From assembly GCA_951406725.2 (NCBI GenBank), contig OX597835.1, positions 19,902,001 through 19,966,000 of the forward strand: a DNA stretch of 64,000 nt, given 5' to 3'. Positions within the stretch are counted from its first letter, which is position 1. Each line of letters begins with the position of its first letter. The notes under the pieces are model-generated. The model was not told the DNA's origin. It saw only the letters and a list, made by a program, of their open reading frames with translations, and did not search any database. The DNA comes from Octopus vulgaris. Its lineage: Eukaryota. Both the position numbers and the translations under genes were made by a program. Below are positions 8,970-64,000 of the stretch, piece by piece.

Positions 8970-9926
8970 GGCGGCGAGCTAGCACGCCGGGCGAAATGCT
9001 TAGCGGTATTTCGTCTGCCGTTACGTTCCGTGTTCAAATTACGCCGAGGTCGACTTTGCCTTTCATCCTCTCGGGGTCGATTAAATAAGTACCAGTTACG
9101 CACTGGGATCGATATAATCGACTTAATCCGTTAAATCAGTCCTTGTTTGTCCGCTCTGTGTTTAGCCCCTTGTGGTTAGTAAAGAAATAGGTGTTTCGTC
9201 TGCCGTTACGTTCCGTGTTCAAATTACGCCGAGGTCGACTTTGCCTTTCATCCTCTCGGGGTCGATTAAATAAGTACCAGTTACGCACTGGGGTCGATAT
9301 AATCGACTTAATCCGTTTGTCTGTCCTTGTTTGTCCTCTCTGTGTTTAGCCCCTTGTGGGTAGTAAAGAAATAGGTATTTCGTCTGCCGTTACGTTCTGA
9401 GTTCAAATTACGCCGAGGTCGACTTTGCCTTTCATCCTTTCAGTGTCGATTAATTAAGTACCAGTTACACACTGGGATCGATATAATCGACTTAATCCGT
9501 TAATTCTGTCCTTGTTTGTCCTCTCTGTGTTTAGCCCCTTGTGGGTAGTAAAGAAATAGGTATTTCGTCTGCCGTTACGTTCCGAGTTCAAATTCCGCCG
9601 AGGTCGACTTTGCCTTTCATCCTTTCGGGGTCGATTAAATAAGTACTAGTTACGTACTGGGGTCTATATAATCGACTTAATCCGTTTGTCTGTCCTTGTT
9701 TGTTCTCTCTGTGTTTAGCCCCTTGTTGGTAGTAAAGAAATAGGTATTTCGTCTGCTGTAACGTACCAAGTTCAAATTACGCCGAGGTCGACTTTGACTG
9801 TCATTCTTTCGGGGTCGATTAAATAAGTACCAGTTACGCAATGGAGTCAATGTAATCGACATGATCCTTTTGTCTGTCCTTGTTTGTACCCTCTATATTT
9901 ACCCCCTTGCGGGCAATAAAGAAATA
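8970..9926 (+). mobile_element. SINE family A pentamer: one tRNA-like head plus five ~184-185 bp units
   Basis: Head ggcggcgagc..tagcacgccgggcgaaatgc, then units starting ggt(a/g)tttcgtctg at 9005, 9190, 9374, 9559 and 9743; each has a B-box-like gttcaaatt and ends aaagaaata. Confidence 0.92.
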
Positions 9927-20891: not shown

Positions 20892-20902
20892 GTAATAATA
20901 AT
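20240..20902. repeat. (AAT)n/(GAT)n microsatellite blocks (20240-20515, 20738-20902)
   Basis: Directly visible. Confidence 0.95.
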
Positions 20903-20904
20903 AT

Positions 20905-21648
20905 GACCATGTTGTCTCCAAATGCAGTCTTCTAGCGCCTACAGAGTACCTCAGTAGGCATGATAGAACTGCACAATATATTCACTGGGTAATTTGCAAA
21001 AACCTGGATTTGCCCCATGAAAAAAACTGGTGGGAACACAATCCACCTCCTGTGCTTGAAAATGACCACATCTCACTCCTCTGGAACTTCACCATTCAAA
21101 CTGACAGGAAGATAGATGCAAATAGGCCAGGCATTATATTGAAAGACTTCAGACAAAGAACATGCCACCTCATTGATATGACTGTCCCAATCGATATAAA
21201 CGTATCTGTCAAGACCTACCAAAAACTGAGCAAATATAAAGATCTTGAAATAGAAATCAGCAAAATGTGGAAGCTGAAGACTAAAACAATACCTGTTGTC
21301 ATAGGTGCCCAGGGAATGATAGCGAAAGGGACTGATTGCTACCTAACTCAGATACCAGGAAACCCCAAAATGGCAGAAATTCAAAAGATAGTGCTCATGG
21401 GAACTGCTCATATCCTACGCAAAATACTCTCTATGTAATCCCAAGGTTTAAAACAAATTATTTTTTTTATTTTTTTTATTTGTTTATTTTTATTTTTTTT
21501 ATGTATTAGACATTCACTAGTACAACACCAAAAAAGGACCCCCCCCCCCAAATATATGGCACAGAACTTCCAACCTGTTGTCTCTTGATGTCTCTGGGTG
21601 AGACTTGGAGCCAACTTGTACAGATATAAAGCAAAAGTAAAACATAGA
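20905..21648 (+). mobile_element. 5'-truncated R4/Dong-clade LINE: end of zinc knuckle, restriction-like endonuclease (RLE) domain and 3' UTR
   Basis: Open frame 20905-21438: DHVVSKCSLLAPTEYLSRHD...LLWNFTIQTDRKIDANRPGII...LIDMTVP...KLSKYKDL...IPVVIGAQG...GTAHILRKILSM. Flanked on both sides by (TAA)n. The usual RPD reads RPG. Confidence 0.93.
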
Positions 21649-28411: not shown

Positions 28412-28936
28412 TATATCGGGATACGTTTATAGCTCCACGTAGTTGTTGAAGAAACCCCTCGCACATCATCTAGATTGATTACGAAAATGGTTATACGGTA
28501 GTTCTATATTAAGATAAAAGCGTAGATACTGTGCAATCTCCTAACCAATAGTTTAAATGCAATGCAATTTTCATATATTATAAGCGTAGATTCAAATATT
28601 ATCGGTAAGTGTATATTATGAAGAAGCACGCTGTGCCAACAGTGCTGTTATATCTGGTGGAGTGTCTCGTTGAACCGAGTGAAATTCATGAGCGACAGAA
28701 CAATGAATATATGACATCTAATGAGCTAATCTTCTGGTACATTGCTAAAGATGCACATTCAATCGCTCCTCATTCTTAAGAACATGATAGTAGTATGTTT
28801 ACTCTCCGTCTGACAGAGATTAAACATACTATTATCATGTTCCTAAGAATGAAATCAACCACTCTGTCTATATATATCTACCCTCTTTATAATGTTGGCA
28901 AATGAGATATGGATAAGAATGTGCATTACCTGTTTG

Positions 28937-29014
28937 ATTGGAAAATTCTATAAGTGGCTGAAGATTGCTCGACATTTTAAAACTGATGTAATACATAATA
29001 AAACACATTGTACC
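28937..29014 (+). mobile_element. Partial copy of the 39145-39426 hammerhead element
   Basis: ttggaaaattctataagtggCTGAAGAttgctcgacattttaaaactg matches ~39288-39335; the GAAA half is deleted or degraded. Confidence 0.8.
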
Positions 29015-34128: not shown

Positions 34129-34193
<65 letters not shown>

Positions 34194-34309
34194 AACCTTC
34201 TCTGATTTACACGTTTTGTTTACAATCTTATAATGATATATTATAAGATAATATAATATAATAGAATAAAATAAAATAAAATAGTAGAATGTTAAATGTT
34301 CATTCTGAT

Positions 34310-34354
34310 TGAACTAGTACTTTCATGCAATAAATTCTGCAATCTTCAGATTCA
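34310..34354 (-). ncRNA. Minimal type-I hammerhead ribozyme
   Basis: tgaat CTGAAGA t TGCA gaatttat TGCA t GAAA gtac TA gttca. Confidence 0.8.
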
Positions 34355-34420
34355 TGACAGTCATGCTTCACAATTTTTGACAGTCAAAAATTGTGAAGCA
34401 TGACTGTCTCCACTACTACA

Positions 34421-34465
34421 TGAACCTGAAGATTGCAGAATTTAATGCATGAAAGTACTAGTTCA
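34421..34465 (+). ncRNA. Minimal type-I hammerhead ribozyme
   Basis: tgaac CTGAAGA t TGCA gaatttaa TGCA t GAAA gtac TA gttca; canonical core, perfect 5-bp stem I, palindromic AGTACT stem III; predicted cut after A34460. Confidence 0.85.
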
Positions 34466-34636
34466 ATCAGAATGAACATTTAACATTCTACTATTTTATT
34501 TTATTTTATTCTATTCTATTATATTATATTATATTATATTATAATATATCATTATAAGATCGTAAATAAAACGTGAAAATCAGACAAGGTTGGAATTCCT
34601 TTTATTAATATATTCTTTTATACACAATCACACACA

Positions 34637-35873: not shown

Positions 35874-36289
35874 TATTTCGTTATTGTTCACAAGGGACAA
35901 AACGTAGAGAGGACAAACAAGGACAGTCAGAGGGATTAAGTTGATTACATCGACCTCAGTGCGTAACTAGTACTTAATTTATCGACCCCGAAAGGCTGAA
36001 CGGCAAAGTCGACCGCGGCGGAATTTGAACTCAGAACATAACTGCAGACGTAATACCTATTCCTTTACTACCCACAAGGGGCTAAACACAGAGAGGACAA
36101 ACAAGGACAGACACGCTGATTAAGTAGATTATATCGACCCCAATGCATAGCTGGTACTTATTTAATTGACCCCGAAAGGATGAAAGGCAAAGTCGACCTC
36201 GGCGGAATTTGAACTCAGAACGCAGCGGCGGACGAAATACTACAGAGCATTTCGCCCGGCGTGGTAACGTCTATGCCAGATCGCCGCCT
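35874..36289 (-). mobile_element. SINE family A dimer
   Basis: Two units joined at ..aatacctattcctttactacc (~36052-36072); single head at the right end. Confidence 0.88.
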
Positions 36290-37640: not shown

Positions 37641-38047
37641 TATTTCTTTACTACCCACAATGTGCTATATACAGAGTGGACAAACAAACGGATTAAGTCG
37701 ATTATATCGACCCCGGTGTGTAACTGGTACTTAATTTATCGACCCCGAAAGGATGAAAGGAAAAGTCGACCTCGGCGGAATTTGAACCCAGAACGTAACG
37801 GCAGTCGAAATACATATTTCTTTACTACCCAGAAGGGGCTAAACACAGAGAGAACAAACAAGGACAGACAAACGGATTAAGTCGATTATATCGACCCCAG
37901 TGTGTAACTGGTACTTAATTTATCGACCCCGAAAGGATGAAAGGAAAAGTCGACCTCGGCGGAATTTGAACTCAGAATGTAACGGCAGACGAAATACAGT
38001 TACGCATTTCGCCCGGCGTGCTAACGTTTCTGCCAGCTCGCCGCCTT
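37641..38047 (-). mobile_element. SINE family A dimer with 9-bp TSD
   Basis: Junction gaaatacatatttc at ~37807-37820; tacatacac at 37631-37639 and 38049-38057. Confidence 0.9.
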
Positions 38048-39101
38048 ATACATACACAATTATACATACACCAACAGTCGGAAATATTCATCAATAAAAA
38101 TCTAAACAAACATGACAAACACAAAACATGAACTATCTTCTTGTTGTTATAACAGGAAACCTTAGGAAGGAAATTTAAAAACTGTAGCAGCCGAAAAGAC
38201 GTATAAAAACACTATAGATGTAGCTGACACATACACGAGTAATGTATATAGAGCCTGTTCGTATAAATAATACCCACAAATATAACTCACCCTCTATTAA
38301 ACGGCTACACTTACGTAATATTTGCAGTTACTAAAGTGGTCCTTATTATTATTATTATATATTACTTAGAGAGTATCTAACGTTGCCTAACTCCCACGTG
38401 CGGTATTTCATAAAGGAACTGATGTCGCTGGATATACCTAAATGTAGCCTGCTCTAGAAATGACGTCAGTATGCCATTCCAGTTACAGGAATCTGATTAG
38501 GATGAAGCGAGTTGACAGTTGGTTGAGCGTATGTTTCAATCTAAATAGATGTCTTTATCAATGTAGTCGTTCTATTTTCTTTGCAGCAGTAGAGGGCACA
38601 CTTCGAAATATGCCAAGAAAAGAAAAGAGGAAAGCAAAGAACCAGAACTCACTTATTTCATAGGTATTCTGCATAAATTAAACAAGTATAGATTTGGAGA
38701 AAGATACCTAACTAGCAGGAATGAATTTGAGCAAGAAATCGAGTATTCGTATCTTGGACACACAGTATATTCACATTTATGAAATACTTTATATAAGGAG
38801 AGATAAACTCCACTGTTAATAATTCTCCGAAAATGTATCCTTCTATTAAGGCAAAGGTTGTTCTCACAGCAGACAAGTGAGAGTTATGGACACGCATTAT
38901 ACAACCATTTCACACTGTATATGTGCACATATCTCTTTATTTGTGTGGGCTTGGAAAAGCAATTTTTTTAATGAAAGACTTATTGCTTTAATTTGCATTG
39001 TTTTCCAGTATTGGGAGTTGTTGTTTGAGAAACTTATCATACTCAGGTATCTCCTAACATAACAATGAGCGTAGTGTTTTTATATATTTGTACACACACA
39101 C

Positions 39102-39148
<47 letters not shown>

Positions 39149-39174
39149 ATCAAAATAAGCAACAAAGATATCCA

Positions 39175-39259
39175 AGGTACAATTGTTTCATGCTACTTCA
39201 TGTTATTAGACACTGTAAGTATTACATCAGTTTTAAAATGTCGAGCAATCATCAGCCAC
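39175..39259 (-). ncRNA. Hammerhead with long loop II; stem I 3' strand damaged
   Basis: gtgg CTGATGA t TGCT [~50 nt] AGCA t GAAA caattg TA cctt. Confidence 0.65.
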
Positions 39260-39303
39260 ATATAGAATTTTCCGTATAATTGGAAAATTGGAAAATTCTA
39301 TAA

Positions 39304-39389
39304 GTGGCTGAAGATTGCTCGACATTTTAAAACTGGTGTAATACTTATAGTGTTTAATAAAATGAAGTAGCATGAAACAATTGTACTAC
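39304..39389 (+). ncRNA. Type-I hammerhead ribozyme with long loop II
   Basis: gtgg CTGAAGA t TGCT [~50 nt] AGCA t GAAA caattg TA ctac; palindromic ACAATTGT; predicted cut after GUA at 39385. Confidence 0.78.
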
Positions 39390-39502
39390 TCTACCTTGAA
39401 TATTCTTGTTACTTATTTTGATTATAATCACCCCATTTGATTTATATGGATAATACCATACAAAATTCTGGTGCCTTTAACTTAAGTACCATATCCATCT
39501 GA

Positions 39503-39555
<53 letters not shown>

Positions 39556-49569: not shown

Positions 49570-50370
49570 AGGTTTGACATGAACATGTATCCCTGGAAGT
49601 GGAACAAGCAGTCGAAGGGGTTGGAGATGCCAAAGTTATACAGCACTTGCTAACTTTGAGATATAAAGACGTTGTGAAATGCATAAAAATTACAAAGACA
49701 TTATTTTAGATGTGGTGGGAAAAAGGGAGCATGCAATCCTAAACTTCACAGTAGAACCTGCATATGGAAAGACCTACCAAGCTAAAAAGATATTAGAAGT
49801 TCATATTGATAAAGGTTTGAAAGATGATCAGACATTTCGATTTGCTGGTGATGGTGATCGATTTCCAAAAATGGAAGCAAGAGATGTCATCATAGATTTG
49901 GGTGAAGAAGATGATGAACTCTTCCGTCGTAATGGAACTGATCTTATTCCCTCGGAGCTTGAAAAATTGCTGCCTGAACGTAGAACTGTGAACATTCCCG
50001 TTTCTTATTTCTTTACTGCCCACAAGGGGCTACACACAGAGGGGACAAACAAGGACAGACAAACATATTAAGTCGATTATATCGACTCCAGTTCGTAACT
50101 GATACTTAATTTATCGACCCCGAAAGGATGATAGGCAAAGTAGACCTTCGCGGAATTTGAACCCAGAACGTAACAGCAGTCGAAATACGGCTACGCATTT
50201 TTGCCCCGCGTGCTAACGTTTCTGCCAGCTTGCCGCCTTTGCCGTGAACATTCCCGTTTCTGGAGAAGCATGTGTTCTGTCAGAACTTCACCCCAAAGAA
50301 CAACGTTATAGGTGTCAATGCACTGAAGCTTATGATGATGATGTGGATGATCACATGGGTCTTGCAAATT
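49570..50370 (+). pseudogene. DNAJA: Processed, internally deleted DnaJ subfamily A (Hsp40, DNAJA1/4-like) pseudogene
   Basis: RCGGKKGA; NPKLHSRTC; KKILEVHIDKGLKDDQTFRFAGDGDRFPKMEARDVII...FRRNGTDLI; ELEKLLPERR; EAYDDDD. Collinear with the DNAJA C-terminal half, intronless, frameshifted and SINE-interrupted. Confidence 0.88.
50006..50238 (-). mobile_element. Full-length SINE family A with 18-bp TSD
   Basis: gtgaacattcccgtttct at 49988-50005 and 50244-50261. Confidence 0.95.
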
Positions 50371-62247: not shown

Positions 62248-63668
62248 ATGTTAGATGTGATCTGGGACTAGTGAATGGCAGTAAGAGAACAAAAGCAGCG
62301 GCACTTAAAACGCATTACAGATTTGAAAGATGCTTAGGAAACAAAACTTATATAGAGCTATCAACGAGATTTTAATGAAATTGAATTTTAACGATTTATA
62401 GTGAAACAAATATAATTTTTCCTGTTTGAATGATTTTACTCACAAAAATTAACACTTAATTAACCATTCCATTAAATGTTAATACTTGGAAAATCCATGC
62501 GGTAGACTATGCATGCATCTATAAAAAAGTGTAACCTCTGCCTATTTCGATTGTTTAGAACAGAAAATACCATTTAATTAGTATAACTTCGTATTCTCCC
62601 ATGAAAAAAACCCGATCACTTATAAACAGGATCCATTTCTCCTTTACCAAAGCGGCGTCCGTTATTGGTCATGACTGATCACGAGTCGTTTCTACTCAGA
62701 TCCTACTAAGTTAGTATCTCTCGTCAATACACGAACGCCTTAAATGCTGAACTCACTGACAACAAAACCAAATCTTCTTCAGCACAAACTCAACATTAGA
62801 GAATATTTCTTTGTTCATTTTAAAACGAAAGCATTCCGTAAAGGTGCGACAAAGAGATTATCTACATCCGATTCAATGAGGCTATAGATGTTATAGACCC
62901 GTTTCTTTCTTTCATGCGAAATGATTATTAGTAAGTAGATGCCATTGTACTTTTTTCTTTCAAATGAACAAAATTTGTTCGGTGCAGGATTCAATCTCAA
63001 ACTGTATGTGTGCCAGGTCACGGTATATAGTTCTACATACATATCTTTTTTTCAGATTACCAACTATTTCCTAAAGATATGATTATAAAGTTCGCCAACA
63101 AAAAAAGAGAAAATACTTCCATGACACTTTCTATTCGTTTCTTTGTATTTATTTATTCTTTTTATCCAATCAGTATCATGACACAAGTTGTCAGAAATAT
63201 GCGACGTGTCTATAGGAAAATTATCCAAGGATAACCTAAACGATACTAGAAATAATAAGAAAGTGAAACCCAAATTAAAATTAAGTATTGGAATCGTGCA
63301 CTGGAACCAATTCCATCTGTCATTTGCAGATCACCAGACACATCGGTACAGATACAGATTTGTATTTCATACAGACGATGTAACGGATTTGTTTTAAATA
63401 TATGAATTATTTTCTAGTTTACTAATTCTATACTCTTTTACTTGTAATAATTTTATTCTCTTACATTCTTCAGTGATTGGGCTGCGGTCATAATTCTGTG
63501 CTATGATTGAAGGCATGATAAATTCAGTATGTATTTTTTATGTCTGGTACTTATTCTATCGGATACTTATTACCGAACTTCTGAGTTATGATGTGACTAT
63601 ATATATATACATACATATATATATATATACATACATATATATATATACATACATATATACATACAAAA

Positions 63669-63897
63669 GGCGGCGAGCTGGCAGAGACGTTAGCACGCCG
63701 GGCGAAGTGCTTCGCAGTATTTCGCCCGTCGCTACGTTCTGAGTTCAAATTCCGCCGAGGTCGACTTTGCCTTTCATCCTTTCGGGGTCGATAAATTAAG
63801 TACCAGCTACGCACTGGGGCCGATGTAATCGACTTAATTCGTTTGTCTGTCCTTGTTTGTCCCCTCTATGTTTAGCCCCCTGTGGGTAGTAAAGAAA
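63669..63897 (+). mobile_element. Full-length SINE family A monomer
   Basis: ggcggcgagctggcagagacgttagcacgccgggcgaa...gagttcaaattcc...gtagtaaagaaa; flanked by an atatacataca direct repeat. Confidence 0.93.
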
Positions 63898-64000
63898 CAT
63901 ATACATACATATATATGCATACATATAGCCATTTTGGAGCACCGCCGTTTTTCCGCACTGTTATTACTGAGATCCTCCTCTAATATGTGGCACTTGGTGT

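What the first reader, a model, noticed from the sequence alone, without database searches (positions are those of the whole stretch)
39145..39426. Second, unrelated twin-hammerhead palindrome with a ~50-nt loop II
Seen: same architecture as 34191-34594 but different sequence. The cores differ only at the variable position 7 (CTGATGA versus CTGAAGA). Stem II TGCT/AGCA encloses ~50 nt, stem III is ACAATTGT, and a third partial copy lies at 28937-29014. Inference: two independent families converging on this form point to a shared insertion mechanism, and the long loop would escape standard short-loop HHR searches.
Basis: partly seen in the sequence, partly recalled or inferred. Interest (0 to 1): 0.75.

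Follow-up and report, generated by a model that had tools for sequence, protein, structure and literature searches.

The report
Penelope mini-palindrome, long-stem hammerhead
This mirror-image stretch is two back-to-back end-pieces of a common Penelope-type jumping gene, a known footprint; what is unusual is that its predicted self-cutting RNA carries an extra-long stem, and that across copies one half nearly always has a tail and the other does not, which likely means both halves are copied separately at insertion.

Summary
The palindrome is real (arms 39145-39273 and 39290-39426, 119 of 129 columns complementary), but the insertion runs to ~39505 through a tail on one arm. It is the hammerhead-bearing 3' end (pLTR) of a Hydra-clade Penelope-like retrotransposon: longer copies lead into a GIY-YIG endonuclease (CxCX5C) and an RT (DKT). 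Head-to-head PLE insertions with a tail on one arm in (TA)n are published, and this scan has noted them in at least 29 other genomes. The neighbour at 34191-34594 is a Neptune/Nematis-type PLE, so the shared form is better read as common PLE machinery than convergence. Only the right-arm hammerhead is intact; an 8-nt deletion wrecks stem I of the left. The 49-nt 'loop' is predicted to be an extended helix II; 2,506 genomic matches, stems I and III covary between subfamilies, Rfam missed the five loci tested. Among 84 loci, 46 are inverted; 39 of 40 pair a long with a short end, 22 of 39 cannot be fold-back copies, and arms share subfamily alleles: likely two primings on one template. Cleavage untested. 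New variant of a known kind.

The parts
39145..39273 (-). Left arm: 5'-truncated pLTR copy ending at the short 3' end; hammerhead core CTGATGA...GAAA present, 8-nt deletion removes the 3' strand of stem I
39274..39289 (.). Junction spacer: upstream pLTR sequence of the right arm with an 8-nt tandem duplication (read from the sequence)
39290..39426 (+). Right arm up to the position of the short 3' end
39303..39390 (+). Predicted type I hammerhead: stem I 5 bp, core 39308-39314 and 39374-39377, U.U at 10.1/11.1, stem II 39316-39319/39369-39372, stem III palindrome 39377-39384, predicted cut after A39385
   Evidence: activity untested
39320..39368 (+). 49-nt insert in helix II, predicted to fold as an interrupted hairpin
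39427..39505 (+). Tail present on this arm only (family tail ~94 nt; here ~10-15 nt short of the usual long end)
39090..39148 (.). Left flanking (CA)n/(TA)n microsatellite target
39503..39554 (.). Right flanking (TA)n/(TG)n microsatellite target
28770..28997 (+). Second insertion of the same family: inverted arm 28770-28812 plus sense arm 28814-28997 that breaks off inside helix II
34191..34620 (.). Comparison element: head-to-head pLTR pair of a Neptune/Nematis-type PLE, short loop II, ~30-nt tail on the right arm

Best explanation
The stretch is a head-to-head insertion of two 5'-truncated 3' ends (pLTRs) of a Hydra-clade Penelope-like retrotransposon in a TA microsatellite, likely built at the target by two separate reverse-transcription primings, one at each of two fixed sites 94 nt apart on the element's RNA. 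Shown: family membership, two fixed 3' ends, long+short pairing, scattered junctions, shared alleles between arms. Inferred: the GIY-YIG nuclease opens both strands of (TA)n, each DNA end primes cDNA on the same (or a sister) RNA, both cDNAs stop early and are joined, often at 1-4 nt overlaps. The hammerhead is a passenger of the pLTR; in the parent element it is predicted to cut tandem transcripts, probably as a dimer or with protein help. In the palindrome it is predicted to be off: the two motifs lie on opposite strands, each is preceded by its complement, and the left one is broken.
For: Upstream copies give endonuclease with CxCX5C, CxxC and CxH (Pfam GIY-YIG E 5e-5 over cut-off) and RT with PADKTG and YRDD; L283 is pLTR+tail-ORF-pLTR+tail. 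The hammerhead matches the Hydra signature ctgaNgat-tgc..gca-tgaa-ac in supplement S2 of PMC8557442. 46 of 84 position-ordered loci are head-to-head; 39 of 40 with two defined ends are long+short (binomial p 4e-11) while singles are 19 long, 19 short; 108 of 129 3' ends abut (TA)n. In 22 of 39 pairs each arm holds >10 nt that the other lacks (hand count), 9 of 39 do not overlap at all. Arms differ at 18 of 150 diagnostic sites versus 44% after permutation (0 of 5000). Same rule in the neighbour family, 9 of 9. PMC11167929: two internal RT start sites define the tail, both strands are cut and extended, dimer predicted. Whole palindrome folds at -184 kcal/mol.
Against: No biochemical test. Most pairs (30 of 39) overlap in sequence, which on one RNA needs strand displacement; two RNAs from one source or later gene conversion fit the allele sharing as well, and the window's own arms differ at 2 of 6 diagnostic sites. 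PMC11167929 saw no difference in start site between strands in vitro. Pfam found no RT family in the 348-aa RT piece; no tree was built; the Hydra RWK motif reads RWI in two copies. Target-site duplications cannot be read in (TA)n. The hairpin in the 49-nt insert is not more stable than shuffles in this subfamily (z -0.5 to -1.1).
Confidence: 0.8

Rival explanations
1. Same element, but the inverted arm arises by fold-back self-priming of one cDNA or of an antisense template, as proposed for Penelope by Arkhipova et al. 2013.
For: PMC3846280 argues for self-priming from palindromes at junctions. Arms share alleles. In the neighbour family 5 of 10 pairs join at one natural palindrome. 12 of 39 pairs have the short arm inside the long arm.
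Against: 22 of 39 pairs have sequence unique to each arm; only 6 of 46 junctions are symmetric within 10 nt; fold-back gives no reason for the second arm to stop at the fixed short end.
Confidence: 0.12
2. The palindrome is itself a mobile twin-ribozyme unit (retrozyme- or MITE-like) that two families reached independently.
For: 16 of 84 loci carry two arms that span the whole hammerhead.
Against: Arm lengths and junctions differ among copies; 30 of 46 inverted loci lack one or both full motifs; the left motif here is broken; both families are PLEs; retrozymes are direct tandem repeats (PMC7229834 passages).
Confidence: 0.03
3. The long-helix motif is a relic hammerhead that no longer cleaves and is kept as a protein-binding or promoter structure.
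For: U.U at the stem II base, 2-3 bp stem III, hammerhead fold 2-3 kcal/mol above the free ensemble; PLE hammerheads cleave poorly in vitro (PMC4209133) and cleavage was dispensable for insertion (PMC11167929); no pile-up of 5' ends at the cut site (0 of 133 in bin 1170-1179).
Against: Core invariant between subfamilies A, B and family C while the insert diverges; compensatory changes in stem I (CG 19/UA 13; AU/GU/GC) and in the stem III palindrome (GC 14/AU 6); U10.1-U11.1 is tolerated (PMC3088659, PMC7229834).
Confidence: 0.2

Closest known systems
Hydra-clade C-terminal EN+ Penelope-like elements (Craig et al. 2021, PMC8557442; e.g. Penelope-1..18_HM, Hydra-1_Obim)
   Same: CxCX5C linker, no CCHH, CxxC/CxH, DKT, (TA)n targets, 3' type I hammerhead with ctgaNgat-tgc..gca-tgaa; Penelope-13_HM carries an inverted 5' copy with a hammerhead on each strand.
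   Different: Listed Hydra hammerheads have loop II of 3-10 nt, here 49 nt; the Hydra-1_Obim hammerhead is a different sequence; element longer than the usual <3 kb (about 4.7 kb in L283, long 3' UTR and Asn-rich inserts); RWI for RWK.
EN+ PLE insertion architecture: inverted pLTR with a tail on one arm (PMC3846280, PMC8557442, PMC11167929)
   Same: Head-to-head 5'-truncated copies, tail at one end, two fixed 3' ends, AT-rich target.
   Different: Tail ~94 nt rather than 30-40 nt; described there as optional, here counted as a 39 of 40 rule.
PLE-X1_sMoe and PLE-X1_sTam hammerheads with long loop 2 (supplement S2 of PMC8557442)
   Same: Long insert (about 30-35 nt) in helix II of a PLE hammerhead.
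   Different: Spike-moss EN-minus elements, unrelated sequence, shorter insert.
L1 twin priming (recalled, not checked in a call)
   Same: Two primings on one RNA give a 5' inversion joined at microhomology.
   Different: In L1 the second site is random and the parts barely overlap; here both start sites are fixed and arms usually overlap.

Membership tests
Hydra-clade PLE | C-terminal GIY-YIG endonuclease after RT, linked to the hammerhead end | tested here: met
   L046, L208, L283
Hydra-clade PLE | CxCX5C linker; no CCHH; CxxC and CxH around E and N | tested here: met
   CNCRIRSKC, CKLC..E, N..CIH read in L046, L092
Hydra-clade PLE | DKT in place of DKG | tested here: met
   PADKTG in L282, L283
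Hydra-clade PLE | N-terminal RWK motif | tested here: inconclusive
   RRIRWI at the matching place in 2 decayed copies; no in-frame RWK in 6 loci
Hydra-clade PLE | (TA)n insertion preference | tested here: met
   108 of 129 3' ends
Hydra-clade PLE | Placement in the RT phylogeny | not tested
   No reference Hydra proteins were held; no tree built
EN+ PLE insertion unit | pLTR-ORF-pLTR, inverted 5' copy, tail on one end | tested here: met
Type I hammerhead ribozyme | Core CUGANGA/GAAA/UH with stems I-III | tested here: met
   Right arm only; covariation; left arm fails stem I
Type I hammerhead ribozyme | Self-cleavage at H17 | not testable with these tools
   Only contig data
Type I hammerhead ribozyme | Match to an Rfam hammerhead model | tested here: not met
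   0 hits at gathering score in 5 loci, including one short-loop neighbour-family locus; none among the 150 rows shown of 372
Non-LTR retrozyme | Direct tandem repeats of 170-400 nt without own ORF | tested here: not met
   Copies are 5'-truncated ends of an ORF-bearing element, mostly single or inverted; one direct tandem (L010) among 30

The most novel reading that the evidence does not exclude
Hydra PLEs of this genome carry active hammerheads whose helix II is extended by a 45-50 nt structured arm, a variant invisible to standard searches and present in thousands of copies, and PLE integration is obligatorily double-primed: a dimeric RT-nuclease starts one cDNA at each of two fixed sites of a single RNA, one per strand of the break.
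Probability: 0.35. Interest if true: 0.55.

Novelty: new variant of a known kind. Interest (0 to 1): 0.33.

Why it matters
How PLEs make their tandem/inverted insertions is stated as open (PMC8557442). A 39 of 40 long+short rule, arms that cannot be copies of each other and shared alleles give a sharp prediction for the existing in vitro system (PMC11167929). The long helix II suggests hammerhead counts from short-loop descriptors are too low in such genomes. The locus itself is a dead, ordinary insertion, and the scan has met the architecture many times.

Tried and rejected
Rfam scan of the window was swamped by microsatellite matches; the repeat finder likewise. No RNA holder listed; contigs of 4 guessed-RNA runs cover the family but cannot show ends, strand or expression; a depth dip near the cut site was not taken as evidence. 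Pfam gave no family for the RT piece. Core-versus-loop test inside the young family is null. RNAalifold on family C returned no structure; pairs were counted on the fold of the majority line instead, which leans towards that fold. 5' ends do not pile up at the cut site; one junction (L156) fits it. A1 was partly chosen by a core pattern, so its core and stem II columns say nothing; only stems I, III and the insert were free. Convergence and mobile-palindrome readings rejected. Paper searches listed no paper on this long-helix cephalopod motif or on PLE twin priming; subscription papers (e.g. Arkhipova 2006, Lunse 2017, recalled) and 58 of 59 parts of the Craig supplement were not read, and Repbase/Dfam were not searchable.

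Full report
Observation. The window is AT- and microsatellite-rich animal DNA in a 2.8-Gb genome (octopus-like is my guess, not tested). Arms 39145-39273 and 39290-39426 are complementary at 119 of 129 columns with one 8-nt gap. The right arm holds a type I hammerhead pattern: stem I AGTGG/CTACT, CTGAAGA at 39308, U.U, stem II TGCT/AGCA around 49 nt, GAAA, palindromic ACAATTGT, cut site after A39385. The left arm has CTGATGA but lacks 8 nt after the cut site; stem I falls to 2 bp and the hammerhead fold costs 7.5 kcal/mol against 3.4 for the right arm. The right arm continues ~80 nt to the (TA)n at ~39505.

Family. A DNA search gave 1,819 first-look candidates, 40 scored, at ~95% identity; an exact 23-mer has 662 matches, control 0. 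Copies are 5'-truncated, end in (TA)n and have two 3' ends ~94 nt apart. Walking upstream reached a GIY-YIG endonuclease (Pfam E 5e-5) with CxCX5C, CxxC and CxH and no CCHH, and an RT with PADKTG and YRDD; L283, an older-subfamily copy, is pLTR-ORF-pLTR. These are the marks given for the Hydra clade in section 11 of PMC8557442, whose supplement lists hammerheads with the same ctgaNgat-tgc..gca-tgaa signature, loops of 3-10 nt, an Octopus Hydra family with another motif, and Penelope-13_HM with an inverted 5' copy and motifs on both strands. RWK reads RWI; no tree was built. All ORFs seen are broken.

The neighbour (34191-34594) has 1,164 candidates and an endonuclease with CX4CxxC and the two-cysteine GIY-YIG core at the C-terminus (Pfam GIY-YIG just under cut-off): Neptune/Nematis-type, with no BLASTP similarity to the Hydra piece. 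So the families differ, but both are PLEs.

Architecture. The first 100 of the 662 matches, in genome order, fall in 84 loci (6 duplicate loci dropped; flanks 1.5 kb for 24, ~3 kb for 60; three pairs classed by hand). 46 of 84 are head-to-head; 16 have two full motif spans, 22 one, 8 none. Of 40 with two defined ends 39 are long+short, 1 short+short, 0 long+long (p 4e-11); 6 had an undefined end; the 38 others are 19 long, 19 short; 108 of 129 ends abut (TA)n. Counting from that list, 22 of 39 pairs have >10 nt unique to each arm, 12 have the short arm inside the long, 5 are near-equal; 9 do not overlap. In 26 pairs with enough overlap the arms differ at 18 of 150 diagnostic sites against 44% after permutation (0 of 5000); conversion or a common source locus could add to this, and the window's arms differ at 2 of 6. 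The neighbour family gives 9 of 9 long+short besides the window copy (29 loci chosen by similarity). The inverted copy and one-sided tail are described in PMC8557442 (passages) and PMC3846280 (passages; self-priming proposed); PMC11167929 (parts 1-2 of 4) shows two internal start sites, both strands cut and extended, and a protein-assisted hammerhead not needed for insertion. Double priming is my inference from these and the counts.

The long helix. The 49 nt fold as an interrupted hairpin on stem II, though not better than shuffles in this subfamily (z -0.5 and -1.1; subfamily B -1.7; family C majority -3.6). A pattern with 24-54 nt between the stem halves has 2,506 matches, control 0, covering subfamilies A and B and a diverged family C that also has a Hydra-type endonuclease. 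In 34 distinct A/B copies 92.4% of cells pair; double changes occur in stem I (3 of 5 pairs) and in the stem III palindrome (GC 14, GU 7, AU 6); the insert helices are 95-97% paired with one-sided changes only; the fourth stem II pair is lost in 19 of 34 (related sequences, so the shuffle counts are not probabilities). Core versus insert: no difference in 27 young copies chosen by their UTR (283/297, 1277/1323); 253/264 versus 929/1104 in 24 family C copies. U.U at this place is tolerated (passages of PMC3088659; PMC7229834); palindromic stem III suggests dimers and low activity (passages of PMC4209133). Rfam missed all five loci tested. In the palindrome, a read-through RNA is predicted to form a ~130-bp hairpin (-184 kcal/mol) that hides the motif. 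A preprint (10.64898/2026.07.22.740005, part 1 of 5) ties animal retrozymes to PLE pLTRs; these copies are not tandem retrozymes.

Verdict. Real, mostly ordinary: a dead mini-insertion of a Hydra PLE in a published architecture, noted by this scan in at least 29 genomes (nothing for the long-helix variant). The added value is the long-helix hammerhead variant and counts that favour double priming over fold-back. Cleavage and expression are untested.

Noticed in passing
L061-L090 (family of window 34191-34594): Many copies start at nearly one base ~45 nt before the core (5 of 10 pairs join there at a natural palindrome; about 8 single copies start within 10 nt of it), unlike the scattered junctions of the Hydra family; may mark an RNA start or RT stop.
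   Followed up: partly
L122-L211: Excess of 5' ends just before the hammerhead core (22 of 133 in a 20-nt span, about 5 per 10 nt upstream); none in the bin of the cut site.
   Followed up: partly
L288-L290 (G000 C7:15930010, C1:98507175, C15:53489332): Another repeat family with a hammerhead-like motif of 108 nt and an even larger, branched helix II; passes the Rfam Hammerhead_1 cut-off.
   Followed up: partly
L046, L092, L097: Asn-rich inserts inside the PLE ORF between RT and endonuclease, like those described for Adineta Penelope (PMC3846280), and a 3' UTR of about 1 kb with an internal duplication.
   Followed up: no
L041/L215: The same 8-nt deletion after the cut site as in the window's left arm occurs at another locus, between short direct repeats.
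   Followed up: no
window 49667-50068 (+): 134-aa frame with a DnaJ C-terminal domain match (E 8e-11); exon or retrocopy not determined.
   Followed up: no
window 20902-21435 (+): 178-aa frame that looks like the C-terminal nuclease region of a non-LTR retrotransposon (recalled; no Pfam hit).
   Followed up: no
window 9191-9926, 35874-36240, 37678-38047, 63667-63903: Dispersed ~300-370 nt repeat at 85-93% identity, probably a SINE.
   Followed up: no
L149, L185: Three-arm insertions that include a tail-to-tail pair.
   Followed up: no
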